DNA from: Escherichia coli
GTDB taxonomy: Bacteria > Pseudomonadota > Gammaproteobacteria > Enterobacterales > Enterobacteriaceae
Strand: one strand, 5' to 3'
Assembly (NCBI RefSeq): GCF_002854065.1
Contig: NZ_CP024147.1
DNA length: 64,000 nucleotides
The position numbers were made by a program, and so were the translations under genes. Shown piece after piece: positions 30,790 through 60,048 of the stretch. The notes under the pieces are model-generated. The model saw nothing but the letters and a program-made list of their open reading frames with translations. It made no database searches and was not told where the DNA came from. Each line of letters opens with the position of its first letter. The first letter of the stretch is position 1.

Positions 30790-31110
30790 AACTCCCCCAC
30801 TTCACCGAAAGTAGTTTCCTCATTGCTTGCCTCCTGAGTTTTGCAAACAGCCTGATGGCAGCTTGCCCTTTCAAATCAGTAAGTGGTATCCACAGACAAA
30901 CATGAAGGGAAAGGCATATTTTCAGGCGTTCTGCTCGTCCTTCTCAAAGAGTTTACTTTTTTGAATTTCCAGGATACTCAAACCACCCTGGCTATTGTGC
31001 GCTTATACACGCAAATTAAAGATAGGTTCTAAATAAATGAGCGTTATTTGATAGTCTATTTTATTAGGTAATATATATTTGTAACAAATCAATCAACATG
31101 GAATAAAATC

Positions 31111-34592: not shown

Positions 34593-34667
34593 GTCCTCTT
34601 AGTTAAATGGATATAACGAGCCCCTCCTAAGGGCTAATTGCAGGTTCGATTCCTGCAGGGGACACCA
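34593..34667 (+). tRNA. argW: tRNA-Arg (anticodon CCU)
   Basis: GTCCTCTTAGTTAAATGGATATAACGAGCCCCTCCTAAGGGCTAATTGCAGGTTCGATTCCTGCAGGGGACACCA. Acceptor stem pairs; anticodon loop CT-CCT-AA; T-arm GGTTCGATTCC; encoded CCA. Confidence 0.95.
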
Positions 34668-34842
34668 TGCACACCTCTCCTGAAATCTACCATACCCCAC
34701 AAAAAGCCTTTATAATCAGCACATACCCTTACTTATGTTACTCAAATAGTCGCCTTAATTCTCCTCAGGGGAACGTAAATCAAGTCACATTTGGGGGCCT
34801 ATTTAGGGGCACATCTTGGTCAATCTATTGCGAGGCCCCCAG

Positions 34843-36033
34843 ATGCCACTGACAGCTCGACAAGTTGAAACAGCCAAACCCAAAGATAAAATTTATAAGA
34901 TTGCCGATGGTGGTGGGCTCTACCTTCAGGTCAATCCTAACGGCTCAAAGTACTGGCGAATGAAGTACCACTATGCGGGGAAGGAAAAGAAACTATCATT
35001 TGGCACCTATCCAACTATTACATTGGCTGAAGCTCGCAAACGTCGGGATGAAGCCAAGAAAATACATGCCGATGGTAAAGATCCCGGTGAAGTCAAGAAA
35101 GCTGAAAATCTTGAGAAAAACCTTTCCGAAGGAAGAACTTTTGCCGCAATCGCCACCGAGTGGTACAACGCAAAAGTTTCAGGCTGGTCTGCCAGCTACG
35201 CTGATTATGTCGACAGAGCATTCAAAAATAATGTGTTTCCCTACATTGGAAACAGACCCATTAGTGAAATCGAACCTCTTGAACTTCTCGCAGTTCTTCA
35301 GCGTATCGAAAGCCGAGGAGCCTGCGAGCTAGCTAATAAAGTTCGCCAACGATGTGGTGAAGTGTTTCGGTATGCCATTGTTACAGGTCGGGCACGATAC
35401 AATCCAGCTTCTGATCTGGTTATAGCAATGAAAAGCTATAAGCGAACACATTACCCTTTCCTGCTTCCTCCTGAACTACCAGAGTTTTTATACAAACTCG
35501 AAAACTACACCGGCAGTATTGTAACCCGTGAAGCTACAAAATTGTTGATGCTCACAGGGCTGAGAACAGTAGAATTACGTATGGGGGAATGGTGTGAGAT
35601 CGATTTTACCCAAAAGATATGGGAAGTTCCTCCGACCCGGATGAAAATGAGGAAGGAGCATATCGTCCCTCTGTCAGATCAGGCAATCCAGTCTCTGCAA
35701 ATCCTCAAAGAACTGACTGGAAGATACAGATACATCTTTGCCGGAAGAAATGATGTTAACAGGCCTATCAGCGATGCAAGCGTCAATATGGTTTTGAAGA
35801 AGATTGGCTATGACAAAAAAGCTACCGGGCATGGATTTCGTCATACAATGAGTACTGTTCTACACGAGCAAGGATTCAATAGTGCATGGATTGAAATGCA
35901 ACTTGCACATACGGACAAAAACAGCATTCGTGGTACATACAACCATGCTCGTTACCTTGAAGGAAGACGAGAAATGATGCAATGGTACGCTGACTACCTT
36001 GATGCTCTTCGAAAAGAGTCACCAGCTATATAA
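34843..36033 (+). CDS. P4-type tyrosine integrase of the argW island
   Basis: Track ORF 34816..36033; start taken at MPLTARQVETAKPKDKIYKIADGGGLYLQVNPNGSKYWRMKY (typical P4-integrase N-terminus). C-terminal catalytic residues HGFRHT...LAH...Y. Lies 176 nt after the tRNA. Confidence 0.92.
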   Translation: MPLTARQVETAKPKDKIYKIADGGGLYLQVNPNGSKYWRMKYHYAGKEKKLSFGTYPTITLAEARKRRDEAKKIHADGKDPGEVKKAENLEKNLSEGRTFAAIATEWYNAKVSGWSASYADYVDRAFKNNVFPYIGNRPISEIEPLELLAVLQRIESRGACELANKVRQRCGEVFRYAIVTGRARYNPASDLVIAMKSYKRTHYPFLLPPELPEFLYKLENYTGSIVTREATKLLMLTGLRTVELRMGEWCEIDFTQKIWEVPPTRMKMRKEHIVPLSDQAIQSLQILKELTGRYRYIFAGRNDVNRPISDASVNMVLKKIGYDKKATGHGFRHTMSTVLHEQGFNSAWIEMQLAHTDKNSIRGTYNHARYLEGRREMMQWYADYLDALRKESPAI

Positions 36034-36702
36034 TCGCTTGATTTTAAAGGCTGACTTAACGATATCCCCCTGATAGTCATTTATCAGTTATCTAATTATT
36101 AAGTCAGCCATAATCCCCTAAGTATCATTCCTTAATCAGATTCAGCACCTTGTAATACGACCGGTTAATTTAGAAAGAGACGATAGATAAACGCTTATGA
36201 TGAAATACTAAGAAATTACTTCAGGCTCTATTAACTGGAGCTGTAATAGACAATAATTTAAATAACGCAATAGTTATATTTATATCTTAATATAAATTTC
36301 CACTGTATTTAACGTCCAGGGAGCCATCTTGAAAGGATAAAAATTCACATTATCACCATAAAATCACAACGACACCAAAACACATTTCACAACAACACCC
36401 TTGCAATAAACCTGTTTTTAACAAAAAATCAAAGACTGAAAAGAGTTTTGATTCAGAAAACCACATGAGACATGCTTAATATTTTTCAGTTTATCTAAAG
36501 GACGCGTTCATCTTTATTACAAAAATATAAGTACACTGTACTTATTAAACATCCAAAAATCACACCAGTTAATATTTCTTGTATTACTGTAATTTCTGGA
36601 AAAATTTCTTCAAAAAAAAATATAGCATACATATCTTTATATGCTATAAAAGATAAGGCAGATTTATAACATACTTGCCTCAATAGAACTATCTAAGGGT
36701 TT

Positions 36703-36730
36703 GCCTCCACATATAGTGGAGGCTTTTTTT
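36703..36730 (+). terminator. Orphan intrinsic terminator in AT-rich spacer
   Basis: gcctccac-atata-gtggaggc followed by ttttttt. No plus-strand ORF of 60 aa or more lies upstream. Confidence 0.65.
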
Positions 36731-37299
36731 ACCCAATAACAATATTATTCTGACACTTTATTCCTGTAATCAACAGCAAAAGTATCAAACCAGATGATAA
36801 TTATTTTCATATTGAGTTTTATTATTCTTTTATATTGTCAATTCTAATCATAATTTATAATAAATTTTTAATTATTATATTTGCAAAACACAATAATAAT
36901 AAATTTCTCATTTTTAATTGCAAGTAATATACCTATAACATTTCAAGAATAAACTTTCACAGGTGATTATGACCAATGATATTAACGCCGAACCAAAACA
37001 CCTACAAAGTAGTAACCAATAATAGGCATGTAACATTACTTAACACTGGAATTAAATATCATCACGCAATGTAAATATTTATAAATTAACCAGATTACAT
37101 TGACCATTTTGTTCAGTTTTATAATTATTCCAATATAATGATATTCCAGTGTAAGTAGTTCAGGTTAGTTCATTTGAATTTTATAAGTAGACATGACAAG
37201 AAGAAATATGCGTTACTTTTTTATCATTTCTGATCTTATTATCTATAAGTCGATCAAAGAAAGATTGATTACTATGAAATTTGATTCATGGAGTGACAC

Positions 37300-38767: not shown

Positions 38768-39247
38768 TCACGAAGATAATGATCGTATGGCTTCCTTAAG
38801 GGCTGGTGAGACACGTTGATTAAGTGCTTCATTAGCCCAGTCGGATTGCACGGGTATTCTACGCAATATCACTGTGTTTAAAGCAGCAAACAAACGATGC
38901 AGTAAATGTATAGAACCGGTCGCGATAGCTGTATCCACCCACTGGTCCGCATAGAGCCATGGGGCTGAAAATAAATCAGCCATCGCCTGAGTAGCAACTT
39001 CAATAGACGCTTTTTCTAGGCAAAGAACATCACCCTGATCGCCAAAATTATGCTCAAAGTAAGGCAATCCTTCTATATTCGTGCGAATTAGAGGAAATGG
39101 GCAGCGCCCAATGCTCAGTAAAATATAGGCGTCTATACGCTGATCATCGTCACCCACCTCTGCTGACGGCAGTTTCGCTAGTTGCCCGAGTATCATCCAA
39201 CTGGTTGATTTAGAAATGACCTTTGGGATTTGATCCTCTAAATTCAC
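38768..39247 (-). CDS. Hypothetical 159-aa protein, downstream partner of the nuclease-NTPase gene
   Basis: Track ORF (GTG start) 69 nt after the stop of 39317..40696, same strand. No family recognised. Confidence 0.55.
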   Translation of the reverse strand: MNLEDQIPKVISKSTSWMILGQLAKLPSAEVGDDDQRIDAYILLSIGRCPFPLIRTNIEGLPYFEHNFGDQGDVLCLEKASIEVATQAMADLFSAPWLYADQWVDTAIATGSIHLLHRLFAALNTVILRRIPVQSDWANEALNQRVSPALKEAIRSLSS

Positions 39248-39316
39248 CAGAATACTCTTTGCATCATCCCCGTGTTTAGAAATCCACGCTAATCCATCCT
39301 CAATCTTTAGATTGAC

Positions 39317-41128
39317 TTATTGGTTGTCTGGCATAGCTAAAGTAAACAATCCGTTTTTTATAGGTTCTTTATATGGCTCAATGCTGAGAAGGCCCTGAAT
39401 AATTCCAAAGCTGAAATATCTCTCTTTAGCTGCCATACGGCGTATGGCTTGAGCACCGATCATATCTCCAAGATAAGTGGCGTCTAGCCGTTCGCCAAGC
39501 CAAGCCCCGGCGTCTTGAGGGTCTTGTTCTGCCCGTAAAACCAGTTCATCACAAACAGCATCCGACAGTTCCAGAAGGTAAGCTGCGGGAACTGTCGGCA
39601 CCACAACATCTTCCCATCCTGAAAGGCGAAAAATACGAACTGCCCCCATATGTTTTAACTCATTCACTACACCACGAGCTTCGTCAGAAAGTGCGTCATA
39701 CCGCACGACAAATCCATTCGCTTTAGCAAACATTAATTCTACTGAGTGGGAGTTTGTGTCAGCTAGTGCGCAGCGTGCAAGAACCCGATAATAACGAAGA
39801 AGATCATACTGACTCTCATAGCTCTTTTGCGCAGCATCTATAAGTTCCATACCGGGTGATGGAGGAAGATAGGCGATAAGATCCGTTTTCTGGTATTGAT
39901 GATTGCGCACAATGTCATCATAAATAGTGCGAAGAACCCAAGGCGAGCGGTAGTCATCGGCGTATTCTGCTCCCTGTTGAAAAACTATCCGCTGGTCCGA
40001 GAGAATCTGTTGCGCCAGCTTAAATTCATCTAGGGACATAGGCGATGTTTTAAATACCTTCGACCGGCTACCAATTGCAGACGGAGTTCGTCCGTTTGGA
40101 TTTTTCAGTAACGCGTTGGCATGATAGGTCGTCAGAACAACCACCAGCCTGTTGCCAAAACGTATACCCGCAAGTTCCTCAAGATCAGTAGCCATTTGGG
40201 AGCCTGGTTCAACGTCGTCGATAGCAAGCATAAGCGATGGACCTTCAGTGCAGTTAGACATTCGTCTTAACCAGTTACGTGCATCATTTGAGGTTAAATT
40301 CCATTCAAATTCAGCTGCAAAAAGATTGGCCAGAGCCTGAAATAGTCCTGGTCCGGAACCTCGTAACATCAGGACAGCCAAAAGATCGCTACTTTCCGTT
40401 TTTAGCGAAATTTCACGGAGGCAACTGCTTTTTCCGCTTTGTGCATCACCCTCAATGATAGTGAAAGCTGTACCCATCACAGCAGATTCAATTACAAGAG
40501 ACGTGATTTTGCGAGGAAAAAGTAGGTTGTTGGCAAATGGATGTTCTGAATGCCCAGGCTGATCAGTTATATCAATCAGCAGCCGGGCTGTTTCTTCTCG
40601 CACAGCTGGCACCCAAGCATTAGTTTCTCGCCCCATCAAGGCTTCAATAGCCCAGCGCATGTCAGCCGCCGCCAACTTTGCAGAATTGGCGAGCATCTTG
40701 TTTACCGCTGCCGAGGCATCCTGTCCACCCGACCACTGTTGTCCATTACTTGAGTCATAAACGCGCGTATCTTTACCGTTCGTAACTACAACGAGAGGCG
40801 GACGTGGTGTTAACTGGTTAGCGTAGCTTTAAGCCTGTTCATAATCATCATGGGTCAGTGTCAGGTCTTCACGTTTCAGTTCAATAACCGCAAGTGGTCT
40901 CTCCCGATGAAAGATCAAAACATCCGCTCGCCCGTATTTTTTCCAGTGTGCGGCGCTATCTATTTTGTAAGTTCCATGGCCTAGCCGAACGGTAAAATGG
41001 CGCTGTTCGATAAGATCTTCGCGAGGAATGTTAGGAAATGCTATGTTTAGTGCTGAAGTAAGCCGGCTTTCTAGCTCGGCTTCAGTTCGAACGAGTGGAG
41101 AGCCCGTTTTTGATTGCATACTTTTCAT
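39317..41128 (-). pseudogene. PD-(D/E)xK (HsdR-N/Mrr-like) nuclease domain fused to a STAND/AAA+-like P-loop NTPase, interrupted by one in-frame TAA (40829-40831)
   Basis: Track ORFs 40829..41128 and 39317..40696 are in the same frame. The 44 codons between them are open (SYANQLTPRPPLVVVTNGKDTRVYDSSNGQQWSGGQDASAAVNK). Motifs: D-x12-ELK (GRADVLIFHRERPLAVIELK), Walker A GDAQSGKS (40427-40450), Walker B LMLAIDDVEP. Good RBS (gagga) before the ATG at 41128. Confidence 0.75.
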
Positions 41129-41771: not shown

Positions 41772-42788
41772 TTACTCGATGCCCAGAACAAATGACATTA
41801 ACAAATCTAGCTTTATTTTCATGTCTGCAGTTGCCGAAGCCGCATTAACCTGCGGCAAGGCAAGCCATCTGTTTACGGCATCGGAGTTGAATCTCTGCTG
41901 CCTTAGGAACGAAGATACCGACGTTTCCCAGGAAAAGATTTCACCCCCACAAAGTTCGACGGGCTGCTGAGAGCAGGCTCGCTGAATAGTCATTCCCAAA
42001 CCGACGTAGCGGAGAAGCTCACGTCGCACATTCTCATCTTTTTGCATGACTGGTGCATCCAGTTTCGGTTTCGGTCCAAAGTACACTCCGGTAGTACCTG
42101 GTTGTAATGTCGGGTCACTGGAAAAATAAACCGGAACTCCCATCAATTTAAATGCCGCTGTCAAAATTTCATAACTAATGTCTGATCGACTCCAACGGCC
42201 CATGTGGGGTGGTACTTTTGGCAAACCGACCAGATCATCGCCACGGCTTACAATCGATACCCCCTCAACTGGCACGGATGGTTGCATTCTGAATACAGCG
42301 TCAGAATCGATTTCCCAGCCAGCTTCGCTTAACAATCGCAAAAAATTACCAGCAGCCACGCACGATGATTCACTCCACTCAACACAACCGATGCGCAGCT
42401 TGTCCCGCTGACCGAACTGTCCTGTTCGAAATAATTCGAGGTATCTGTCGCGATTGGAACTATTAACGGCATATGCATCAATCACAGTAGGCGGTACAGG
42501 TTTACTTGCAGATTCAGGATTTTGTTGAAGCAAATCTGGGCTTATGAAAAACACTATAGCGAAGATCGCCACTGCGCCAGATGCTCTTAACCACCCATTA
42601 AATTTTACTTCAAGGAAACCAGGCAGAACTGCACCAATACATCCGGCAGCCAGAGCCAGAACTATTCGGTAAACTATATATTGATAAGGTGTGGGATTGG
42701 GGGTTGTGATAGTAGTAATGAGTATGGCAACTATCGCCACAACCGCAAAACCATACCTAATGAACTTGTCTGTCCTTACACTGCTCAT
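41772..42788 (-). CDS. Hypothetical membrane protein (three N-terminal TM helices plus ~240-aa soluble domain)
   Basis: 338-aa ORF. Hydrophobic stretches FAVVAIVAILITTITT, IVYRIVLALAAGCIGAVLPGF and ASGAVAIFAIVFFI. No family recognised. Confidence 0.6.
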   Translation of the reverse strand: MSSVRTDKFIRYGFAVVAIVAILITTITTPNPTPYQYIVYRIVLALAAGCIGAVLPGFLEVKFNGWLRASGAVAIFAIVFFISPDLLQQNPESASKPVPPTVIDAYAVNSSNRDRYLELFRTGQFGQRDKLRIGCVEWSESSCVAAGNFLRLLSEAGWEIDSDAVFRMQPSVPVEGVSIVSRGDDLVGLPKVPPHMGRWSRSDISYEILTAAFKLMGVPVYFSSDPTLQPGTTGVYFGPKPKLDAPVMQKDENVRRELLRYVGLGMTIQRACSQQPVELCGGEIFSWETSVSSFLRQQRFNSDAVNRWLALPQVNAASATADMKIKLDLLMSFVLGIE

Positions 42789-43091
42789 TTTAATTTTGAC
42801 ACCTGAATCAAGTCCATAAGTCGAAAATCCCGCATTAAACTGTTCCCCAATGATTAATACAGCTTTATACGCGTAATGAGGCTATTGGCGTTGGTGATGA
42901 GTGTAACTGTCCATTCCTCGCTCAGAGCAACCTTCTGCTCCAAGAGTCAGTCTACAGTGTGCAAAAAACAGACGTTGATCACAATATCGAGTTAATCATT
43001 CGGCCGTTTATCACTCCCATTGAAAAATTTCTCAGTATCCAATATACCAATGTTGAGGGCTTCCCTCTTACATCTCAAAAGGATAACTATC

Positions 43092-43220
43092 ATGGGTCTT
43101 AAACCTGGTCCAAAACCAATTGCTAAATCGACAGGAAAACCAGATCAACGCCGACGAGATAATAAAGATACTCCTGGCAACACTCCGGGACTAAAGCCAA
43201 GTAAGTCCACCGGGAAGTAA
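43092..43220 (+). CDS. Possible 42-aa basic Pro/Lys/Gly-rich peptide with an internal repeat
   Basis: ATG at 43092 preceded by aaggat. Reads MGLKPGPKPIAKSTGKPDQRRRDNKDTPGNTPGLKPSKSTGK; GLKP...KSTGK occurs twice. This is the shorter, ATG-initiated version of track ORF 43020..43220. Confidence 0.3.
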   Translation: MGLKPGPKPIAKSTGKPDQRRRDNKDTPGNTPGLKPSKSTGK

Positions 43221-43256
43221 AAAAATCAGGGTATAAATAAGTTATTTATACCCTGA
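43218..43256 (-). terminator. Intrinsic terminator of the three-gene helicase operon
   Basis: 15-nt perfect inverted repeat tcagggtataaataa/ttatttataccctga, followed on the minus strand by ttttttt. It sits 14 nt after the helicase stop. Confidence 0.85.
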
Positions 43257-43269
43257 CTACATATCCAGT

Positions 43270-45468
43270 CTACTGAAGGTGTTTCTGCAGCCAGGTGCAC
43301 GTTCCTTCTATATCATACGCCTGTGCCCCATACCCTTTAGCAAGCAAAGTCTCTGGTAAATACTCGTCATATTTATCCAGATACTTGTCAGGAACAACTG
43401 CAGCAAGCTCAAACTCTGAAGGTAACCCCGACAATAGCATTTTCTTAAGTACACGCTGGACAGAGGCAACGCCTGAGTCCTCTACCTCTATCACACCTGC
43501 AAATGAACTGGCTTTAAAGCCACAACGTATAAGCAGGGACGTAATTGTATTGACAATTTTATCCCCCATCCACGGGATCACGTAGCAGTTCTGACCACTG
43601 GCAATAAAACAGTCATTGTGTAGATTGTAGCGTTGGAAGTTGTCACTTCCTTCCGCAAAGAGGCTTCTGGCTGCGGCATCAGCATAATCGACTCTCTTGT
43701 TGCCTACCGCGATACGGTAATCATTTTCCCTGTAGATAGCGAGCATCTCCTGGCGAACAACATCATGAACAGACATCCCGCTACCACTGAATAGTGGTGG
43801 CTGACCGCCTTTAGTCGCCTCAACATAGATAACCTTTTTTTCAACCTCGATCTCTGTCACTTTCCAGCGCCGTCCGCCGAAGATGATGTGCTGCTCCGGC
43901 AAAAGTGGGGAGTCTACAGGCACTGTGCCAAGAGTTCGGTTTCCCGTTACAATGCGAAACTCCTCAGGTGTATTGAATACGGCATAAAACGTGTAGTGAT
44001 TAGTCAGCTTCTCCCCCTCAGCCCCGACAACTATTTCACCGCTGGCTAGTTGACTGAGCAGGCCACATGTCCCCATATGTTTAAGCAGACTTTTAAAGTC
44101 ATTTATATCCACATTCCGGAACGGACCTGTCTGGCAAAGTTGTGACCAGAGTTGATCGGCACGAACACCTCCCCATTGCGCAGTAATAGCCAGGATCTGG
44201 TGTAGTAGTGTGGAGTAATGTTTCTGCCGGATATCTGCAGGCTCGAACCAGCGCTTAGAGATCATCAACCTGATCATTGCCATCGCCTGAACCAACTGCA
44301 GCCGTAAATGATCCACAATGCTGCTGGTTGCGGTAAGTTCAGGTTCAGTAATTAACATTCTCAGCACCGATGGGGAATCGCGCCGCCCTGAACGTCCCAT
44401 GCGTTGACGCAGACTGGAAACAGAATGCGGAGGTGTCACTTGTATGACAGACTGCACCTTACCAATATCAATACCCAGCTCCAGCGTCATTGTACAAACA
44501 GCGGTTGTGGGCAAATTCCCTTTCTGCAGTCGGGCTTCAAGCGCCTCACGTAACTCCCTGGCAAGGGAGCCATGATGAGGAAAGAATTCATTAGGAACGA
44601 CATTTGCTTCACACATGTCGCTCAGTATTGCCGCTATGCTTTCAGTACGCTTTCGACTGTTAGCAAAGACCAGGTGGGAATCGCCACGACAGAGCCTGAA
44701 AATATCCGCGCAGACGAGCTGTTCAGCAGAGCTCTGGAGCTCTTCCCCTTTTTCGAGCACCCGCTCAAGATAACCTTTAACCTGAACTTGTAGTGTAGCG
44801 GTGCTATTACTGTCTGTTACCGTTTCACAAGGTAATCTCTTATCCGGACGCAATAATTCTGGCACTTTTTCCAGCTCTCCCAGAGTGGCACTCAACGCGA
44901 CACGGGGAACTGGATTTAACTGGCGTCCCAGCACATGGTCAATTCTATTAAGCAGCGAAAGCAGTTGTATACCACGCTCTGAGCCAATAAAAGCGTGGAA
45001 CTCATCAATAACAATGTATGCCACTGAAGAAAACGCCTGTTTGAGCCAACCCAATGAGTTTATGAGCAAAGACTCAAGTGATTCAGGTGTGATAAGTAAG
45101 ATACCTGACGGGCTTGTCCGTGCTTTATTCTTTTTGCTTTGTGGTACATCCCCGTGCCAGGGCGTCACTTGCATTTCCAGGGCTTCCCCCAGGCTCTCAA
45201 GACGACGGTGCTGATCGTTAATCAATGCCTTCAACGGACTGATATAGATAATGCCAAATCCACCAGTGAGATCTGCAATCGCTGAACAGGCAGGAAGAAA
45301 GAAAGCCTCTGTTTTACCCGCAGCTGTACCTGCACTAATTAGTACATCACGATCACGGGCTAAAATTGCCGGAATAGAGCTCTCCTGCAAGGGCCTTAAT
45401 GATGACCAGCCCTGCTTATAAATCCACTTACGGACACGGGGATCGAGACTATTGTAGGCACTGCTCAT
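43270..45468 (-). CDS. sngC: DEAD/DEAH-box (Lhr-like SF2) helicase, Shango SngC-like
   Basis: 732-aa ORF. Q-motif LRPLQ, motif I AGTAAGKTEA, Ia SPLKALINDQ, II DEFH, III SAT, VI QRMGRSGRR, plus a ~300-aa C-terminal extension. Its ATG overlaps the stop of the upstream ATPase gene (ATGA). Confidence 0.85.
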   Translation of the reverse strand: MSSAYNSLDPRVRKWIYKQGWSSLRPLQESSIPAILARDRDVLISAGTAAGKTEAFFLPACSAIADLTGGFGIIYISPLKALINDQHRRLESLGEALEMQVTPWHGDVPQSKKNKARTSPSGILLITPESLESLLINSLGWLKQAFSSVAYIVIDEFHAFIGSERGIQLLSLLNRIDHVLGRQLNPVPRVALSATLGELEKVPELLRPDKRLPCETVTDSNSTATLQVQVKGYLERVLEKGEELQSSAEQLVCADIFRLCRGDSHLVFANSRKRTESIAAILSDMCEANVVPNEFFPHHGSLARELREALEARLQKGNLPTTAVCTMTLELGIDIGKVQSVIQVTPPHSVSSLRQRMGRSGRRDSPSVLRMLITEPELTATSSIVDHLRLQLVQAMAMIRLMISKRWFEPADIRQKHYSTLLHQILAITAQWGGVRADQLWSQLCQTGPFRNVDINDFKSLLKHMGTCGLLSQLASGEIVVGAEGEKLTNHYTFYAVFNTPEEFRIVTGNRTLGTVPVDSPLLPEQHIIFGGRRWKVTEIEVEKKVIYVEATKGGQPPLFSGSGMSVHDVVRQEMLAIYRENDYRIAVGNKRVDYADAAARSLFAEGSDNFQRYNLHNDCFIASGQNCYVIPWMGDKIVNTITSLLIRCGFKASSFAGVIEVEDSGVASVQRVLKKMLLSGLPSEFELAAVVPDKYLDKYDEYLPETLLAKGYGAQAYDIEGTCTWLQKHLQ

Positions 45469-46781
45469 AGTCTGAAATTCGCCAGGCCATCATCGTCATC
45501 ACTTTCCTCCACAATGGCATCCCCCATATCGCTGGGCTTGTCTTCTTCAATCGCCACCCCCTCAATGAGAGCTTGCCAGTTCATCGTACTGTTTTGTTCC
45601 AGCACAGCCAGCATATCCAGAAAACCTTTTATGGTATTGCGGGGAGTTCGAAAGTAAGCATCTCCGATGGTTTTGCTGCAGTGATGCAGAAACCCGGTCA
45701 GAGCCTCATCTGGCACCAGATAATTTGCGGGATCTCCACCAGCATAAACATGACGAAGATTTTTCAGTAAAATATACAGTTCCTCAGGAGTGAGGCTGGC
45801 AAGATGTAGCGTGGGAGACGAGTAGTCAATCACGCCAGCTTTCTGTGCGAATCGATTTTCTGCCAGACGCGACTGGAGCGCTTCATAGCTGTAGAGCCCC
45901 TTACGTGGATCGAAAAGAAACTCTGGCGTCCCCCCGAGGATAAAACCAATATTTTCGGCGGAGCCTTGCAGGCAGTCATTCAGGATCCGCAAAATTTGTT
46001 CGTAGTTGGCCGTTCTCGCTTGCGTATTATTCAACTTGAAGAGGTTCACCATCTCGTCGAGGCTAACTAAAAGTCCGGCATAGCCTGCCTGACGGACAAA
46101 AAGGCTCATCAACTTCAAAGAGTCATAGAACGAGGCGTCTGAGATAATCGTTCGGACGTCAAGATCATTACGGGCATCAGTTTTTGTGGTGTACTCGCCC
46201 CGCAACCAGCGAATAGCATTGGATTTTAAGGTTTCGTTATCCTGCTCATGCCCGCGCCAGAATGCGTCAATGACCTTCGCAAAGTCATATCCACCCACCA
46301 TATCTGACAAAGCAGCAAGGCGTTTATGAATAACGGATGAGACCTGGGAGCCGTTCGCATCAGCTTCCTTCCTTGCCTCAGTAACAAACCTTTCCACAAC
46401 GCTAAGTAATGCATTGCCATCTGGTTTGTTTCTGGTGGACATATTTTTCATAAGCTCTGAGTAGAGATTACGAGCCTGACCTCCCGATGAGTGAATACGT
46501 CTGTCGGGAGAAAGGTCTGCACTGACCGTGACCAGCTTTTTCTCTAACGCAATAGACCGTACAACACTTAAAAAGAACGTTTTGCCGGAACCATACTCAC
46601 CAATGATAAGTCTGAAGCTTGCCCCGCCATCAGCAATCCGTTCAATATCCTGATGGAGGGCGGTTATCTCATTCACGCGGCCAACCTGGATATGCTGAAT
46701 ACCTATCCTTGGCGTTACTCCCGACTTAAGTGACTGAATAATAGCGTCGCGCTCTTTCACTCTTATACGTGTTACAGACAT
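45465..46781 (-). CDS. sngB: DUF2791/BrxD-like P-loop ATPase, Shango SngB-like
   Basis: 438-aa ORF. Walker A GEYGSGKTF, Walker B GLLVSLDEM, acidic C-terminal tail. Confidence 0.8.
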   Translation of the reverse strand: MSVTRIRVKERDAIIQSLKSGVTPRIGIQHIQVGRVNEITALHQDIERIADGGASFRLIIGEYGSGKTFFLSVVRSIALEKKLVTVSADLSPDRRIHSSGGQARNLYSELMKNMSTRNKPDGNALLSVVERFVTEARKEADANGSQVSSVIHKRLAALSDMVGGYDFAKVIDAFWRGHEQDNETLKSNAIRWLRGEYTTKTDARNDLDVRTIISDASFYDSLKLMSLFVRQAGYAGLLVSLDEMVNLFKLNNTQARTANYEQILRILNDCLQGSAENIGFILGGTPEFLFDPRKGLYSYEALQSRLAENRFAQKAGVIDYSSPTLHLASLTPEELYILLKNLRHVYAGGDPANYLVPDEALTGFLHHCSKTIGDAYFRTPRNTIKGFLDMLAVLEQNSTMNWQALIEGVAIEEDKPSDMGDAIVEESDDDDGLANFRL

Positions 46782-46784
46782 TCA

Positions 46785-49094
46785 CTAACCCTCTAATTCT
46801 TTGGCTATTTCCAGGTCAACCCAAATGTGATCATCAGCATCTTCCAGCACTGGTGCATCAACCACCGCATAGGACCAATCGTTAATCACCTCAAGCGCAC
46901 CGCCGAGCATCAGGTTCCAGTTACTACACAACTCTGTCGCCTCTTTTCTGGACCATTGTTCTTTCTCCAGCAACCTGCGATAAAGTTGGCTATGAGCGGA
47001 GTCAAGCCCCCCTTCCCCGGTTAATGAGGCTGGAGCGCTTTCTGGTTGTTCTGGTTCTTCTTCAGTGAAAATCGAGTTCAGTAATTTACGAACATCATCA
47101 GTGGCAGATTCGTGGCGGGCAAGTACATTGGCATCCAGCGTAAACCCTGCCGTCGACTGATTAGCTGGTACAGATGAAACGAGAGCAGTTTCAGTTACGG
47201 AATGCTGATGGATATTGCTTGATACGGATGAGGGATCCAACCCCAGGCTTGTATAAATCTTCTCAAGCTGTTTGATTTCGGCAGGCGTAATTCTGCCGTC
47301 AGAGCAAGCGACACTAACGATAACCTTACCCACAGCTGATTTTTCCGCTGCACCGAGTAACTCAATCCGGCTTTTCATTCCCGTCATATTCGCCGGGGTA
47401 TGAAGCTGCCACGTTAAATATGCGTGCAGAGAGCGCTTTTCATCATCGCTGAAGCTGACATTGTTGTTGATGGCATTCTCAAGCACTTTCTGTTCGGCTT
47501 GATCGAAAGAATTGTCAATCAAGGCGACTACCGAACCTAATCGGAGCGTCAATACAGCTGTGATAAATTCAGGAGAAGGAGAGAAGCGGCCACTTTCACC
47601 AGCAGGGAATAAAACAAGAACACCATCGACATCTGCTTTTACGTGGTGGTAATAGGGGTCAGGAGCCAGGCAGTACCCCATTTTCTGTGCAAAGGCCTGC
47701 ATCAAGTCGGCCTCTTTTTTGTTGATCTTTGCCGGACAGGTAGCATTCATGTGTGACCAGAAGTCAGCAACTGAAACTACTCCCCCCTTACTGAGGATCG
47801 CGTCATCAGCCCAGCGTTTGAATGCACTTAATATTTTATCTGCGCTTTCGTTAACGATTTCTGAAGGCAGCAACAAAATTGCAACGGTATCATTTGCTGA
47901 AGTGCCTTTTCTACCAAGGTAACGACTGTAAGCATCCAGTTCATCTGTGCATATATCAGCAAGAGTCATAAGCTTCTGAACAGGGCCTTTCAATGCACTT
48001 GGATCAGGCAAGTCAGGAACAGGAAGCCGAATACCTCTCAAACTGGGACTTGCAGGCGTGTAATCTAAACGCAGACGCGCTTTATTCGGCTTCACTACCA
48101 TCCCTTCACCGTATTTAAGGGTGTAACGCCGTTTAAATAGTGCAGCAAATTCTTTCGCACAGCGGCGGGCGGGGGTTCGTAATGAGTATTCAGTATGGTT
48201 TGTCACCCACGTCAGAGCCAGATCCGCTGGAACCGGGGCTCCTGCATCAACTGTCTTTGCCAGGATTAACCTGAACTGCATGCTATTGCTGAACTCTGAA
48301 TCATCGCTGAGAGCTGCTGCAAGATTTTCGTTCGGACGAAGAATGGACATCGCTTCAAGTAACTGGGACGAGTAGTTCCGGAATGATCTGTTTTCATTGA
48401 AAACAGATCTGAGACGGCAGATCTCTTTGAAAAGAGAATAGAACTCATCGTCAGATATATTGCTGTCCCTGCTGTCAACAAGCGCCCGTCTTTCCAGACC
48501 ATACAGATAAATAAAAACGTAACCAATTGGGCAAGAAGTGTCACATCTGTCGCTGGTAAGCCAACTCAGGTACGCGCCACGTGCTTCAGGTGAAAGTGAG
48601 GAATAACTGGGCCAATACCCTAATGAACTATCTTCGTAGATGTAAGATGTGGGGTATATCTTGAGCGTGTCGTCAATTAGCGATGCCTCGCTACTATCAT
48701 CATAATAACCGCCTGAGTTATGCCCGACAGGGTTCATTCGCTGTCCAAGATAGAAGTAGCCGCCGGTAATCTCTACCCCACCGACTGTGATCACCTCCCC
48801 CGGTAAAATCCAGCGAGCCAAAGCACCGGTAGTTTTTGAGAAATTCTGGCGTTGAGTGGCTGTTATACTGTATTCGGCATTCCGCCCGCCACTTAGTGTA
48901 AACGTAGCCAGATTGTCATCTTCGCTGTCCTCGTTGTGCATTACAGACTGATTTTTTTTGTTATTAGCAAGCCATTCTTTAGGTGGTGCTTTCACAGGAG
49001 CGGAAGTATAAGAGCCCGCGGACTTAGTTTTCTTCTTTTTGAAAAAAAGAATATAAATCAAATAAATCGCTACTATAAATATCCATAACTCCAT
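46785..49094 (-). CDS. sngA: Membrane-anchored TerB-domain protein (TerB-N / TerB / TerB-C-like), Shango SngA-like
   Basis: 769-aa ORF. N-terminal TM anchor ELWIFIVAIYLIYILFF followed by KKKK. The C-terminal half has paired TerB-like helices (IDNSFDQAEQKVLENAI...; ACSDGRITPAEIKQLEKIYTSLGL). 3-nt gap to the next gene. Confidence 0.75.
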   Translation of the reverse strand: MELWIFIVAIYLIYILFFKKKKTKSAGSYTSAPVKAPPKEWLANNKKNQSVMHNEDSEDDNLATFTLSGGRNAEYSITATQRQNFSKTTGALARWILPGEVITVGGVEITGGYFYLGQRMNPVGHNSGGYYDDSSEASLIDDTLKIYPTSYIYEDSSLGYWPSYSSLSPEARGAYLSWLTSDRCDTSCPIGYVFIYLYGLERRALVDSRDSNISDDEFYSLFKEICRLRSVFNENRSFRNYSSQLLEAMSILRPNENLAAALSDDSEFSNSMQFRLILAKTVDAGAPVPADLALTWVTNHTEYSLRTPARRCAKEFAALFKRRYTLKYGEGMVVKPNKARLRLDYTPASPSLRGIRLPVPDLPDPSALKGPVQKLMTLADICTDELDAYSRYLGRKGTSANDTVAILLLPSEIVNESADKILSAFKRWADDAILSKGGVVSVADFWSHMNATCPAKINKKEADLMQAFAQKMGYCLAPDPYYHHVKADVDGVLVLFPAGESGRFSPSPEFITAVLTLRLGSVVALIDNSFDQAEQKVLENAINNNVSFSDDEKRSLHAYLTWQLHTPANMTGMKSRIELLGAAEKSAVGKVIVSVACSDGRITPAEIKQLEKIYTSLGLDPSSVSSNIHQHSVTETALVSSVPANQSTAGFTLDANVLARHESATDDVRKLLNSIFTEEEPEQPESAPASLTGEGGLDSAHSQLYRRLLEKEQWSRKEATELCSNWNLMLGGALEVINDWSYAVVDAPVLEDADDHIWVDLEIAKELEG

Positions 49095-49562
49095 GAGGCA
49101 ATAACCTTAAAAATAGCTTTTCACGAACACCGAAAGGATGACGATGGGAAGTGGATTAATCTTAAAATAATACTTCTAAATTACAAAGGTTAAAAGCAAA
49201 TCACAACCTTCCCGAACCTCCGCTTTTCGCTTGCTACGGTCCCTGCCGAGCATGAATCTCGTCTATGCCCAAAAGCGGACATTGATAATTCAGAAACCAT
49301 GGCAGAAGTGTGGTATCAGCCCCTCACCTGATGCCTGCCAGCATCGCACCTCGCTTCATGTCTAACCTCTCTGTTAGCCCGGCAGGGTCAATGGCTCTGT
49401 TGACAATGGTGCTACTTTCCAATACGTTAAGCACAAGGTTAGCGCGACCCGGCAGCTCACGGCCAAAGCGGAATGCAGCGCAGACTTATCAAATCTTTTT
49501 TGGTTAAGTGTCTTTGATTCTTATGATTCGTGAGCACATAGGACAGATAAGAGACTTAAACC

Positions 49563-50135
49563 ATGAAACAAATCCCCACATGCGCTGAAGCAAAAGCCCA
49601 CGCCAAATACCTTTCACGGTCGCTCAATATCAATCTAAGCTACGCCCGGGATGCAGTGGCATTACGTTATAACTACCATAACTGGTCGGAACTCAGCACA
49701 GTATTTGGTCAGCTTAGCTGATAAGTACATGTCGTGCTATGGCCTTGCCAGTCATGAAGAGAAGCGTGTTTTTAGCCAGCTTCTGGCACCATATATCGCA
49801 GAATTGCAAAATGTCATTCATCCTGACCGCCATGTACGGAAAGCTTGATACGTAAGATTGCTGAAGGCCATATTTCCCGGGTATCTGGTAAAGTGATGTC
49901 GGCTGTAATACGTGAATGCGAGGATTTTCCTCCCACGACAGTTAAAGACATCATTGAACTGCTTGAATTTTATGATGAAACGGCCAGCCGGATATTAGCA
50001 GGACACCACCGGCAGATCCCGACCAATAATCCCTTGCTGAAACCCTGGGTATTTGGTGTGCGCTTTTATGCCTATAACCACTTTAATGCCAAGCTGGTCA
50101 CCATCTGTGATCTTCCGCCAACATGCCTCTTCTGA
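49563..50135 (+). pseudogene. Three consecutive short reading frames (frames 0/+1/0) of unknown function, possibly one decayed gene
   Basis: 49563-49721 (MKQIPTCAEAKAHAKYLSRSLNINLSYARDAVALRYNYHNWSELSTVFGQLS*), track ORF 49651..49848 and track ORF 49845..50135 overlap end to end. Confidence 0.3.
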
Positions 50136-51100: not shown

Positions 51101-51234
51101 CTATGCGGTACTGGCCTTGGTGCTAACCCGCGTTAAAGCTACCACGTTGATCAGAGCCTCTCTCCCGGAAAGTCATACTGTCTTACATATTAATCACTCA
51201 AAATAGAGTAAATAAAATCGGTAATGACTCCAAC

Positions 51235-51738
51235 TTATTGATAGTGTTTTATGTTCAGATAATGCCCGATGACTTTGTCATGCAGCTCCACCGATTTTGA
51301 GAACGACAGCGACTTCCGTCCCAGCCGTGCCAGGTGCTGCCTCAGATTCAGGTTATGCCGCTCAATTCGCTGCGTATATCGCTTGCTGATTACGTGCAGC
51401 TTTCCCTTCAGGCGGGATTCATACAGCGGCCAGCCATCCGTCATCCATATCACCACGTCAAAGGGTGACAGCAGGCTCATAAGACGCCCCAGCGTCGCCA
51501 TAGTGCGTTCACCGAATACGTGCGCAACAACCGTCTTCCGGAGACTGTCATACGCGTAAAACAGCCAGCGCTGGCGCGATTTAGCCCCGACATAGCCCCA
51601 CTGTTCGTCCATTTCCGCGCAGACGATGACGTCACTGCCCGGCTGTATGCGCGAGGTTACCGACTGCGGCCTGAGTTTTTTAAGTGACGTAAAATCGTGT
51701 TGAGGCCAACGCCCATAATGCGGGCAGTTGCCCGGCAT
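51235..51738 (-). CDS. insB: IS1 InsB' frame
   Basis: 167-aa ORF, near-identical to copy 1. Confidence 0.93.
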
Positions 51739-51932
51739 CCAACGCCATTCATGGCCATATCAATGATTTTCTGGTGCGTACCGGGTTGAGAAGCGGTGTA
51801 AGTGAACTGCAGTTGCCATGTTTTACGGCAGTGAGAGCAGAGATAGCGCTGATGTCCGGCGGTGCTTTTGCCGTTACGCACCACCCCGTCAGTAGCTGAA
51901 CAGGAGGGACAGCTGATAGAAACAGAAGCCAC
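51657..51932 (-). CDS. insA: IS1 InsA
   Basis: 91-aa ORF, one residue different from copy 1 (TILRHL versus TIFRHL). Confidence 0.95.
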
Positions 51933-52145
51933 TGGAGCACCTCAAAAACACCATCATACACTAAATCAGTAAGTTGGCAGCATCACCAATAAAATCATAC
52001 AACTAGAGAGTGATTATAATTGTTATTGAACACTGGTTATCCCATTTTTGTTATATTGATCACAAAACCCTTCTTTTTATGATGATCTAAAAATAAATAT
52101 TAAATATTGTGGTCAGGCCGCTAGACCGCAATAAGAGGAAATATC

Positions 52146-57958: not shown

Positions 57959-59635
57959 TCAGTCCGCCGGATGGCGGTAAGGCAGCAGTTCATCCAGCCG
58001 GGACGCCGTCCATGACGGCAGCTTCTCCAGCACATCTCGCAGCCAGACTACTGGCTCCAGACCGTTCAGCCTCGCCGTGTGCAGCAGCGTCAGCAGCTCC
58101 GCCAGCCGCTCTCCTCCCCGCAGCGAACCCGCGAACAGCCATGACTTCCGCCCCTGCGCCACCGGACGCATCATCTACTCACTCCGGTTGTTGTCCAGCG
58201 GTACCCGTCCGTCATTCAGGTATGTTTCCAGCGCCGGCCAACGCTTCAGGGCATACGTCACCGCACCGTGCAGCCTGCCACCCGGCGCGCTCGTCTTTTC
58301 CGTCGCCCTCAGCCAGCTGTGGAACGCCTCCATCTGCGGCTTCGCGTACCGCCGTCGCCATCGCCATTTCTGCTCTGCCGGACGCTGCCGGATGGTCTGC
58401 TCCAGGATATACAGCGCCCGTATCTGTTTCAGCGCCTCCTTCGCCCCCGGACTGCCGTTCATTCTGTACAGCTCCATGAACTTTCTGCGCACGTGCGCCA
58501 TGCACCCCGCCTCACAGATACCCGGTGCCGCCGGAGGGGCCCCTTCCTGCCCGTCACGGAACAGCGCCCGGTAACCGGCATAACCGTCAGCCACCAGAGT
58601 CCCCGACCACCCGCTCAGCATCTCACACGCATACTGCCCCGCACGCCCCGGACGGCAGTCGTACACCACGATGTCCCGGGCACTGCCCGCCGCACTCACG
58701 TATGCTCACAGGTACCCTTTCCGGACTTTCCCTTTCCGCGTATCCAGTATCTGCAGCGGCGTCTCGTCCGCCTGCAGCACCGGTTGCCTGAGCAGGTCAC
58801 GTTTCAGGGCTGCCGCCAGCGGCGACAGCACCGCCGCCGTCGGCCCGAACCAGTCCGTCAGCGTGCTTTCCGGCAACTGTACCCCTTCACGGGCGTATAT
58901 CTTCTGCTGCCGCTGCAGTGACAGGTGATCCAGCACCTTCGCGGTCACCACCTGCGCCAGCAGACCCGGACCCGGCTGCCCTTTGTCGATGACTGCCGGC
59001 GGCAGCACGGCACTGTGCACCGTGTCGCAGCACGGGCAACTGTACTGCGGTCTCACGGTCCGTTTCACCACGAAGTGTGCCGGTACATACTCCAGCACCT
59101 CATTCACCTCGTCGCGGATATGTCGCATTTCACTTCCGCAGTCCGGACAGGTGCTACCGGTCTCAGGCATGAGTACGGTTTCCTGTCGCGGCAGGTGTGC
59201 CGGCAGGGGGTGACGGGCCGGCTTCTTCCCGGTTTTCTCCTTCACCGGCAGCAGGTCGCTCAGTTGCCGGGTGATATCAGCCTCATCGCTGGCCGCGTCC
59301 TCATCTGCCAGTGGTTTCTGGCTGGCCGGGAGGCGCTCGCTTTTACGCCCGAAGCGCCACTGGTGGGCCAGCTTCAGGGCCTCCTCCAGCTCCCGGATGC
59401 GCTGTTCATATGCGGTTTTTTCTGCCTGCATGGCGGCATTAAGGTCATGGATACGCTGTTCCAGCGTGGTGGTGACGGTATTCAGGTTATGGAGGCGCTG
59501 TTCCAGCGTGGTGTTGACGGTATTCAGGTTATGAAGGCGCTGCTCATATTCGCATGCCTGTGCCGTCAGCAGCGCTGTTGCCAGACGGCGCAGTTCATCG
59601 GGGTTTTGTGTGGTGTTCAGGATGTCATCTGTCAT
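57959..59635 (-). pseudogene. IS66-family TnpC transposase with two in-frame nonsense codons
   Basis: Track ORFs 58706..59635, 58175..58699 and 57959..58174 share one frame. TGA at 58706-58708 (context GYL*AYV, normally GYLW) and TAG at 58175-58177 (context NNRSE*MMRP). Confidence 0.88.
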
Positions 59636-59709
59636 GCAGCCATGATGACAGAGGCGGGCGGGAACATCCTGATAAGAAGCTGCCCGTATTATGATTCTGG
59701 CACAGGAGG

Positions 59710-60048
59710 TTATTCAGTCCACCTCTGCAGGGGGCTGGCAGAGAGACGCAGCCAGTCAACGCCGGCGGTAAGCCAGGCGAACTGTTCCGCCGTGAGCGAC
59801 CAGGTGGTGTCGCCGTCGCGGGGCCAGCGGAAGGCGCCCTGGTGCAGGCGGCGGGTGCAGAGCCAGACGCCGTGGCGGTCCCACATCAGGAGTTTCATGC
59901 GGGTGCGTTTTTTCCCGGTGAAGAGGAAGGCTTCGCCTTCCCGGGGCGGATGCCCGGCGGCCTGAGTGGCGAGTCGCGTCAGGGAGTCGATGCCGGCGCG
60001 TATGTCAGCAGGCTCGCGGACGAGCCAGAGGGAATGAGGGCTCAGCAC
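59710..60048 (-). CDS. IS66-family TnpB (orf2)
   Basis: 112-aa ORF ...VREPADIRAGIDSLTRLA...KLLMWDRHGVWLCTRRLHQGAFRWP..., the conserved IS66 Orf2 signature. Confidence 0.88.
   Translation of the reverse strand: MLSPHSLWLVREPADIRAGIDSLTRLATQAAGHPPREGEAFLFTGKKRTRMKLLMWDRHGVWLCTRRLHQGAFRWPRDGDTTWSLTAEQFAWLTAGVDWLRLSASPLQRWTE

What the first reader, a model, noticed from the sequence alone, without database searches (positions are those of the whole stretch)
43218..49094. Intact TerB / DUF2791-ATPase / DEAD-box helicase operon (Shango-type anti-phage system) in the argW island
Three co-directional genes are packed as one transcription unit, with a 3-nt gap, then an ATGA stop/start overlap, then a strong terminator 14 nt after the last stop. 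Gene 1 (769 aa) has an N-terminal membrane anchor and TerB-like helical modules. Gene 2 (438 aa) is a P-loop ATPase (GEYGSGKTF / LLVSLDEM) of the DUF2791/BrxD-like kind. Gene 3 (732 aa) is an SF2 helicase with all motifs intact (AGTAAGKT, DEFH, SAT, QRMGRSGRR). This gene content and order is what I recall for the Shango system (sngABC) named in the 2022 defence-system screens, whose mechanism is still unknown. All three genes are uninterrupted although surrounded by decayed mobile DNA, which suggests current selection. The membrane anchor on the TerB protein hints at envelope-linked sensing coupled to a cytoplasmic ATPase-helicase effector.
Basis: partly seen in the sequence, partly recalled or inferred. 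Interest (0 to 1): 0.85.

Follow-up and report, generated by a model that had tools for sequence, protein, structure and literature searches.

The report
Known Shango anti-phage operon (sngABC)
This is an intact copy of Shango, a three-gene anti-phage defence system already tested in E. coli, and it is present in about 8% of complete E. coli genomes, so the find is correct but ordinary.

Summary
Three co-directional minus-strand ORFs of 769, 438 and 732 aa occupy 49094..43270. They are separated by a 3-nt gap and then an ATGA overlap, and a hairpin with a T7 tract follows the last stop.

All three proteins match the PADLOC models SngA (6.5e-103), SngB (1.3e-187) and SngC (7.1e-277). Pfam finds TerB_N/TerB/TerB_C, BrxC_BrxD (PF10923) and DEAD+Helicase_C.

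The proteins are 93.5%, 98.7% and 97.0% identical, over the 399 residues available for each, to the Shango that Millman et al. 2022 cloned from E. coli KTE113 and marked as verified. The full operon occurs in 442 of 5,426 complete E. coli genomes. The finding is therefore already known.

Modest additions from this work:
- The A-B-C order holds in 68 of 69 loci across about 10 phyla.
- All three genes are under purifying selection (dN/dS 0.03-0.20).
- SngA evolves fastest and SngB slowest.
- SngA's N-terminal signal-anchor helix is kept by position, not sequence, in about two thirds of family representatives, with the bulk of the protein cytoplasmic.
- The 6.3-kb cassette also sits in a tRNA-Phe island.

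The mechanism is still unpublished. The best inference is a membrane-tethered SngA that positions a BrxD-like AAA+ loader and an Lhr/BrxHI-like DExH helicase on incoming phage DNA.

The parts
46785..49094 (-). sngA: 769-aa protein with TerB_N, TerB and TerB_C domains and an N-terminal signal-anchor helix
   Evidence: ORF. PADLOC SngA 6.5e-103. Pfam TerB_N at residues 98-309, TerB at 519-624 and TerB_C at 644-768. 93.5% identical to KTE113 SngA over 399 aa.
49041..49091 (-). Codons 2-18 of sngA: hydrophobic helix ELWIFIVAIYLIYILFF, followed by KKKK, implying an N-out/C-in anchor
   Evidence: Kyte-Doolittle 17-mer score of 2.43 at residue 2. The AF2 model predicts a helix at residues 3-19. A helix is present in 97 of 150 family representatives, with mean net charge +2.3 in the 12 residues after it.
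48168..48803 (-). TerB_N domain of SngA (residues 98-309), part of the fastest-diverging stretch of the protein (residues 1-310)
   Evidence: Pfam PF13208 7.4e-50. dN is highest in residues 1-310.
46791..47165 (-). TerB_C domain of SngA (residues 644-768). Residues 699-759 are modelled with an H-beta-H-H-beta-beta topology, which looks like a winged helix
45465..46781 (-). sngB: 438-aa BrxD-family (PF10923) AAA+ ATPase with Walker A GEYGSGKTF (residues 61-69) and Walker B LLVSLDEM (residues 237-244)
   Evidence: PADLOC SngB 1.3e-187, compared with BrxD 1.1e-43. Pfam BrxC_BrxD 2e-151. 98.7% identical to KTE113 SngB. Mean column identity of 75% across phyla.
43270..45468 (-). sngC: 732-aa SF2 DExH helicase of the Lhr/BrxHI type, with motifs I, II, III and VI intact
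   Evidence: PADLOC SngC 7.1e-277; the BrxHI model matches full length at 3.4e-115. Pfam DEAD plus Helicase_C. A family profile hits Lhr 5v9x at 1.2e-49. 97.0% identical to KTE113 SngC.
43218..43258 (-). Intrinsic terminator-like hairpin plus T7 tract after sngC
   Evidence: 16 pairs, a 3-nt loop, then TTTTTTT.
49095..49232 (-). 138 bp upstream of sngA that travel with the cassette, presumed to hold the promoter and RBS
   Evidence: Homology with the tRNA-Phe island copy in strain AR435 ends at window position 49232. The region lies inside the native-promoter insert cloned by Millman et al., which corresponds to window 49563 down to about 42864. No convincing sigma-70 consensus was found there.
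42958..49232 (-). The 6.3-kb mobile Shango cassette shared between the argW island and a tRNA-Phe island
   Evidence: blastn of L082 against the window gives a single 6276-bp block at 96.7% identity, with unrelated flanks on both sides.

Best explanation
Shown: this is an intact Shango (SngABC) anti-phage defence operon. It is an allele of the system from E. coli KTE113 that Millman et al. 2022 cloned with its native promoter and marked as verified. It is carried on a 6.3-kb cassette inside the argW integrative island. My confidence in this identity is about 0.97.

Inferred mechanism (my confidence about 0.3). SngA is held at the cytoplasmic face of the inner membrane by a single N-terminal signal-anchor helix. 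Its TerB_N/TerB/TerB_C body faces the cytoplasm. It is the fast-evolving, specificity-bearing part, and it recognises a phage-derived or injection-associated cue near the DNA entry site. SngB is a BrxD-type ORC/Cdc6-like AAA+ ATPase. It oligomerises and loads or activates SngC, as has been proposed for the tightly linked BrxD-BrxHI pair of type 2 BREX. SngC is an Lhr/Ski2-like DExH translocase whose C-terminal half aligns with that of BrxHI. It then acts on the incoming or replicating phage DNA and blocks early genome establishment.

No nuclease, protease, NADase or pore-forming domain was detected in any of the three proteins. Interference therefore probably comes from ATP-driven DNA remodelling, possibly handing the DNA to host nucleases, rather than from a dedicated toxic effector.
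For: Identity: ORF layout and junctions. The PADLOC SngA, SngB and SngC models are the top hit for each protein. Pfam domains. 93.5%, 98.7% and 97.0% identity with the KTE113 proteins, the same lengths, and 95% identity in the upstream DNA. RefSeq annotation of identical loci.

Family behaviour: A-B-C colinear in 68 of 69 loci from about 10 phyla, with a -4 B-C overlap in 45 of 68. dN/dS 0.03-0.20.

Mechanism: anchor helix followed by a basic cluster in all 104 full-length enterobacterial homologues and in 97 of 150 representatives of 50%-identity clusters, although sequence homology only starts near residue 90. Rate order SngA > SngC > SngB, from mean column identities of 34%, 60% and 75% and from dN. 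SngB matches BrxD and SngC matches BrxHI over its full length. BrxD is classified as an ORC/Cdc6 AAA+ ATPase and BrxD-BrxHI as a linked dyad with a proposed loader role (PMC12839542). SngC's nearest solved relative is Lhr. A winged-helix-like module is present in the SngA model. [quoted passage not shown]
Against: No experiment addresses the mechanism, and the 2025-2026 literature still calls the role of TerB in defence unclear.

The anchor is missing from the actinobacterial and cyanobacterial loci and from about a third of representatives, although some of those may be mis-called starts. Membrane tethering therefore cannot be essential to the core reaction.

No solved relative exists for SngA or SngB by sequence, so the ORC/Cdc6 classification is borrowed from a computational paper about BrxD.

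This exact allele has not been tested, and it differs from the KTE113 SngA at 26 of the first 399 residues.
Confidence: 0.85

Rival explanations
1. Shango acts by abortive infection. SngB and SngC sense phage DNA, and membrane-anchored SngA is the effector that damages the membrane or arrests the cell.
For: SngA has a conserved membrane helix. Other TerB-containing systems work with membrane effectors: Bunzi's TerB protein has transmembrane helices, and Dionysus pairs a TerB protein with a pore-forming toxin.
Against: SngA has only one hydrophobic helix, with 1-2 residues outside the membrane, and no pore-forming or lipid-binding domain was detected. SngA is the fastest-evolving component, which fits a sensor better than an effector. 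Actinobacterial and cyanobacterial Shango loci lack the helix. [quoted passage not shown]
Confidence: 0.12
2. SngB and SngC do not block the phage themselves. They unwind or expose phage DNA so that host nucleases such as RecBCD destroy it, and SngA only regulates them.
For: No nuclease domain is present in the operon. SngC is related to the Lhr, MrfA and Hel308-type repair helicases, which work alongside other enzymes.
Against: There is no direct evidence. The system works after transfer between hosts (E. coli and P. aeruginosa), but those experiments did not vary the host nuclease background.
Confidence: 0.2
3. The genes are a remnant of a type 2 BREX/Pgl system (brxD plus brxHI) fused to an unrelated TerB gene.
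For: SngB hits BrxD (1.1e-43) and SngC hits BrxHI (3.4e-115).
Against: The Sng models score far higher: 622 against 148 bits for SngB, and 919 against 384 bits for SngC. The NCBIfam BREX_BrxD score of 145.9 is below its cutoff of 350. No PglX, PglZ, BrxC or PglW is found among the neighbours. The same three-gene unit recurs in 68 of 69 loci.
Confidence: 0.01
4. The operon is a tellurite or metal stress-response (Ter) module rather than a defence system.
For: RefSeq names some copies 'tellurite resistance TerB family protein', and the Pfam TerB domain hits.
Against: The TerB domain hit is weak (29 bits), and no terZ, terA, terC, terD or terE genes are present. A near-identical operon was verified as anti-phage. 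It sits in mobile tRNA islands that carry other defence-like genes.
Confidence: 0.02
5. This particular copy is a silent or inactive relic despite its intact reading frames.
For: The island around it is decaying. About 380 complete E. coli genomes keep only a stub of sngC. No clear sigma-70 promoter was found upstream.
Against: All catalytic motifs are intact. dN/dS is 0.1-0.2 even against the 97% allele. The upstream 138 bp are conserved with the cassette, and the upstream region is 95% identical to the promoter-bearing insert that worked in Millman et al..
Confidence: 0.04

Closest known systems
Shango (SngABC) of E. coli KTE113, system SG206 in Millman et al. 2022 (bioRxiv 10.1101/2022.05.11.491447)
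   Same: Same three genes, the same order and the same protein lengths (769, 438 and 732 aa). 93.5%, 98.7% and 97.0% amino-acid identity over the 399 residues available for each protein. The native upstream region is 95% identical, and the cloned 6.7-kb insert maps to window 49563 down to about 42864.
   Different: Allelic differences only, mostly in SngA (26 of 399 residues). The genomic island of KTE113 was not examined.
Shango of P. aeruginosa PA14 (PA14_RS11735-45; Johnson et al. 2023, PMC10250203)
   Same: The same TerB-like protein, ATPase and DEAD/DEAH helicase operon. It has been shown to reduce plating of several phage families 10-100-fold.
   Different: It lies in a core defence hotspot (cDHS1) rather than a tRNA island. 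Its sequence was not compared here.
BrxD-BrxHI dyad of type 2 BREX (Pgl)
   Same: SngB belongs to Pfam PF10923 BrxC_BrxD, and the BrxHI model aligns to SngC over its full length. In both systems the ATPase and the helicase are an adjacent, tightly linked pair.
   Different: No methyltransferase, PglZ, BrxC or PglW is present, so there is no self/non-self marking module. A TerB_N/TerB/TerB_C protein is the third partner instead. The NCBIfam BrxD score is below its cutoff.
Lhr / Lhr-Core helicases (PDB 5v9x, 7lhl) and MrfA/YprA (6znp)
   Same: They are the nearest solved relatives of the SngC motor domains (1.2e-49 with a family profile). A weak WH_Lhr hit is also present.
   Different: The scores for the NCBIfam helicase families related to Lhr are far below their cutoffs (230 against 850, and 102 against 1496). 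The C-terminal half of SngC has no match to any solved structure by sequence.
Other TerB-containing defence systems: Bunzi (BnzA) and Dionysus (DinB)
   Same: They contain a TerB domain, are associated with the membrane, and have been proposed to carry out 'membrane surveillance'.
   Different: Their partners are membrane or pore-forming proteins, not an ATPase-helicase pair. SngA also carries TerB_N and TerB_C domains.

Membership tests
Shango (SngABC) | SngA: a TerB-domain protein that matches the SngA profile | tested here: met
   PADLOC SngA 6.5e-103, 344 bits, covering residues 40-768. Pfam TerB_N, TerB and TerB_C all score above their cutoffs.
Shango (SngABC) | SngB: an ATPase that matches the SngB profile better than BrxD | tested here: met
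   SngB 1.3e-187 (622 bits, full length) against BrxD 1.1e-43 (148 bits).
Shango (SngABC) | SngC: a helicase that matches the SngC profile better than BrxHI or other defence helicases | tested here: met
   SngC 7.1e-277 (919 bits) against BrxHI 3.4e-115 (384 bits).
Shango (SngABC) | Three adjacent, co-directional genes in the order A-B-C | tested here: met
   for the window. The same order is found in 68 of 69 loci with enough downstream DNA.
Shango (SngABC) | Catalytic motifs intact: Walker A and B in SngB, and helicase motifs I, II, III and VI in SngC | tested here: met
   These residues are also invariant in the cross-phylum alignments A3 and A4.
Shango (SngABC) | Confers resistance to phage | not testable with these tools
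   Shown for the 93-99% identical KTE113 operon and for the PA14 operon, but not for this allele.
BREX type 2 (Pgl) | Core genes pglX, pglZ and brxC plus pglW next to brxD and brxHI | tested here: not met
   None is found among the flanking ORFs or in the RefSeq annotation of the identical locus. The BrxD equivalog score of 145.9 is below its cutoff of 350.
Tellurite resistance (ter) operon | A short TerB protein encoded alongside terZ, terA, terC, terD and terE | tested here: not met
   SngA is a 769-aa multidomain protein whose TerB domain scores only 29 bits. There are no ter genes in the neighbourhood.
Lhr / ligase-associated DExH repair helicases | Score above the NCBIfam equivalog cutoff | tested here: not met
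   TIGR04121 scores 230.6 against a cutoff of 850, and PRK09751 scores 101.7 against 1496.

The most novel reading that the evidence does not exclude
The N-terminal signal-anchor of SngA is conserved by position and charge pattern, but not by sequence, across many phyla. Neither Shango paper mentions it in the text that could be searched. It could mean that Shango is a membrane-face surveillance machine. In that reading, the fast-evolving part of SngA (the linker plus TerB_N) detects the phage DNA-injection event, and the SngB loader places the SngC helicase on DNA as it enters. That would be a defence acting at the point of genome entry without a nuclease or any DNA modification.
Probability: 0.25. 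Interest if true: 0.55.

Novelty: already known. Interest (0 to 1): 0.15.

Why it matters
For genome annotation, this is a straightforward and correct call of a published defence system. It marks the argW island of this strain as a defence island.

The scientific value lies only in the open question of how Shango works. Four features documented here could help design the experiments that would solve it:
- The anchor helix is widespread in the family.
- Evolutionary rate is asymmetric: SngA is variable and SngB is nearly frozen.
- No recognisable effector domain is present.
- SngB and SngC are homologous to the BrxD-BrxHI pair of type 2 BREX.

Solving Shango would probably also explain what BrxD and BrxHI do in type 2 BREX.

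Tried and rejected
1. Sequence searches of SngA and SngB against the PDB found no relatives. This held for the single sequences and for a 27-sequence SngB profile.

3. The Anantharaman, Iyer and Aravind 2012 Ter paper, which first predicted TerB-associated defence modules, is not held in the library, so its domain predictions could not be cited.

4. A conserved acidic-hydrophobic motif (DDxLATF, SngA residues 59-65) looked like a candidate interaction motif. It occurs in only 14 of 151 family representatives, against 5 in shuffled controls, so it is limited to one clade.

5. The 338-aa membrane protein at 41772..42788 was considered as a fourth component. It has no family hits and recurs in none of the 80 other loci, and Millman's functional insert excludes it.

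6. The promoter scan found no convincing sigma-70 site in the 138-bp upstream region. The only matches overlap the start codon.

7. The BREX-remnant, ter-operon and Lhr-orthologue readings were each rejected on scores and gene context.

8. No structure prediction was run for SngC or SngB, and no multimer prediction is available, so the SngA-SngB-SngC interactions are untested.


Full report
OBSERVATION. The window carries three tightly packed minus-strand ORFs: 49094..46785 (769 aa), 46781..45465 (438 aa) and 45468..43270 (732 aa). The first junction reads TAG-TGA-ATG, a 3-nt gap. The second reads ATGA, a 4-nt overlap. A 15-16-bp hairpin at 43258..43224, followed by seven T residues, begins 11-13 nt after the sngC stop codon. 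tRNA-Arg(CCT), which is argW, lies at 34593-34667 and is followed by a tyrosine integrase at 34816-36033. Upstream of it the window is colinear with the fadJ-fadI-fadL-mlaA-yfdC region of E. coli AMSCJX02.

WHAT IT IS.
- Pfam: SngA has TerB_N (7.4e-50), TerB_C (3.1e-27) and TerB (1.1e-06). The second protein matches PF10923 BrxC_BrxD (2e-151). The third matches DEAD (2.9e-32) and Helicase_C (1.7e-15).
- PADLOC: the top hits are SngA (6.5e-103), SngB (1.3e-187, full length) and SngC (7.1e-277, full length). The next-best hits are BrxD (1.1e-43) and BrxHI (3.4e-115).
- NCBIfam: no equivalog reaches its cutoff.

Millman et al. 2022 list one verified Shango, SG206 from E. coli KTE113. Its proteins are 769, 438 and 732 aa long. 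Over the 399 residues printed for each, the window proteins are 93.5%, 98.7% and 97.0% identical to them. The first 399 nt of their 6.7-kb insert align to window 49563-49166 with 380 identities. This operon is therefore an allele of the experimentally validated E. coli Shango. Johnson et al. 2023 independently validated Shango from P. aeruginosa PA14, reporting a 10-100-fold drop in efficiency of plating and strong protection in liquid culture.

HOW COMMON. The full operon, at 80% coverage or more, is present in 442 of 5,426 complete E. coli genomes. It falls into two main allele groups, at about 99.8% and about 97% identity. About 380 further genomes keep only a 150-900-bp 3' stub of sngC, and CFT073 is one of them. 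The exact SngA sequence belongs to a 90%-identity cluster with 1,855 member sequences. The SngA family is large, with 1,796 clusters at 50% identity scoring E <= 1e-30.

FAMILY ANATOMY. A scan of one genome per species returned 80 loci. They come from the Gamma-, Alpha-, Delta- and Epsilonproteobacteria, Chlorobi, Bacteroidota, Balneolales, Spirochaetes, Chloroflexi, Actinobacteria, Cyanobacteria and Ignavibacteriae. Of the 69 loci with at least 3.6 kb downstream of sngA, 68 have sngA, sngB and sngC colinear. The one exception has a split sngA. The sngB-sngC overlap is -4 in 45 of 68 loci, and the sngA-sngB gap is 3-4 nt in 37. The 338-aa ORF downstream in the window never recurs in these loci.

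Conservation is strongly asymmetric. Mean column identity across phyla is 34% for SngA, 60% for SngC and 75% for SngB.

Pairwise Nei-Gojobori estimates show purifying selection on all three genes. Against the 97% E. coli allele, dN/dS is 0.20, 0.11 and 0.12 for sngA, sngB and sngC. Against Enterobacter it is 0.11, 0.025 and 0.067. SngA has 3-7 times the dN of SngB, and its changes are concentrated in residues 1-310. It also marks SngA as the likely specificity-bearing component.

THE MEMBRANE ANCHOR. SngA starts with a 17-residue hydrophobic helix followed by KKKK. The AF2 model predicts a helix at residues 3-19, followed by a low-confidence stretch of about 150 residues. The helix is present in all 104 full-length enterobacterial homologues. 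It is present in 97 of 150 family representatives, and in 84 of them it starts within the first 13 residues. Sequence homology in these proteins only begins near residue 90. The 12 residues after the helix carry a mean net charge of +2.3. By the positive-inside rule, which is established knowledge, this gives an N-out/C-in signal anchor with essentially nothing in the periplasm. The protein is tethered to the membrane, but it is not a periplasmic sensor. The helix is absent from the Nonomuraea and cyanobacterial loci, so it is common but not universal.

MECHANISM. What is shown is a defence operon that needs only these three genes. This follows from Millman's insert, which ends before the next ORF.

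The rest is inferred. None of the three proteins has a detectable nuclease, toxin or modification domain. SngB and SngC are homologues of the BrxD-BrxHI dyad of type 2 BREX. A 2026 comparative study classifies BrxD as an ORC/Cdc6-type AAA+ ATPase. It describes BrxHI as a Ski2-like helicase with a wHTH, a HAS barrel and an Lhr-CTD-like domain, and it proposes a loader-helicase relationship between the two (PMC12839542). Combining this with the anchor and the rate asymmetry, I propose three steps. Membrane-tethered SngA senses an infection cue. SngB then loads or activates SngC. SngC acts on the incoming or early phage DNA. My probability for this model is about 0.3.

There are two mechanistic rivals. 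[quoted passage not shown] The other is hand-off of unwound DNA to host nucleases (0.2). The literature up to 2025-2026 still describes TerB-based defence as mechanistically unclear.

COMPARISON AND NOVELTY. Every testable membership criterion for Shango is met. Membership of type 2 BREX, the ter operon and the Lhr orthologues was tested and is not met. The system is already known, is detected by standard tools, and is common. I score interest at 0.15. What remains of interest is the unsolved mechanism, and the anchor and rate observations may help to address it.

CONTEXT. The same 6.3-kb cassette, window 42958-49232, occurs at 96.7% identity in a tRNA-Phe island of strain AR435 with unrelated flanks. 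It therefore moves as a module between tRNA integration hotspots. An E. coli study also notes SngABC in islands that carry the ApsAB anti-plasmid system.

Noticed in passing
window 38768-41128 (-): A 786-aa gene combining an HsdR_N (PD-(D/E)xK-like) domain with a P-loop. It is intact in E. coli AMSCJX02 (WP_000839828.1). In the window it carries two C>T nonsense mutations, at codon 100 and near codon 550, among only 5 SNPs. It is therefore a fresh pseudogene here, split into ORFs of 99, 459 and 159 aa. It has only weak PADLOC hits to methyltransferase N-terminal regions. It may be an uncharacterised defence gene adjacent to Shango.
   Followed up: partly
window 41772-42788 (-): A 338-aa ORF with hydrophobic N-terminal segments and no Pfam, PADLOC or NCBIfam hit. 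It lies directly downstream of sngC, is annotated as hypothetical in RefSeq, and is not found next to Shango in any of the 80 other loci.
   Followed up: partly
window 42958-49232, compared with L082 (E. coli AR435, tRNA-Phe island): The Shango cassette is shared at 96.7% identity between the argW island and a tRNA-Phe (yqgA-side) island, with sharp homology breaks 138 bp upstream of sngA and 312 bp downstream of sngC. This indicates module-level transfer between islands. In AR435 the neighbours include a PAPS reductase and an IbrB-like gene pair.
   Followed up: partly
window 43270-44160 region, seen in other E. coli genomes: About 380 complete E. coli genomes, including CFT073, retain only a 150-900-bp 3' stub of sngC, often next to an IS3 element. 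Shango has therefore been deleted repeatedly, leaving a scar.
   Followed up: no
window 51220-51987: An IS1 copy (insA and insB ORFs at 51235..51932) is inserted here relative to the otherwise 99-99.9% identical AMSCJX02 island.
   Followed up: no
window 49564-50135 (+): Divergent from sngA there is a short ATG-initiated ORF starting near 49564, read by eye from the sequence as MKQIPTCAEAKAHAKYL... It is followed by a 96-aa ORF at 49845-50135 with no family hit. The two may be halves of a frameshifted gene. The start of Millman's insert coincides with this ATG.
   Followed up: no
window 36001-37000, 31001-32000 and 58001-60000: Composition outliers. GC is 28.6% just after the island integrase and 33.6% at 31-32 kb. 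GC is 62-66% at 58-60 kb, which corresponds to a frameshifted IS66-family tnpC in the AMSCJX02 annotation.
   Followed up: no
SngA residues 59-65 (window about 48900-48920, -): An acidic-hydrophobic motif, DDxLATF, lies in the otherwise disordered linker between the anchor and TerB_N. It is nearly invariant in Enterobacterales and present in several gammaproteobacterial clades, but occurs in only 14 of 151 family representatives. It could be a clade-specific interaction motif.
   Followed up: partly
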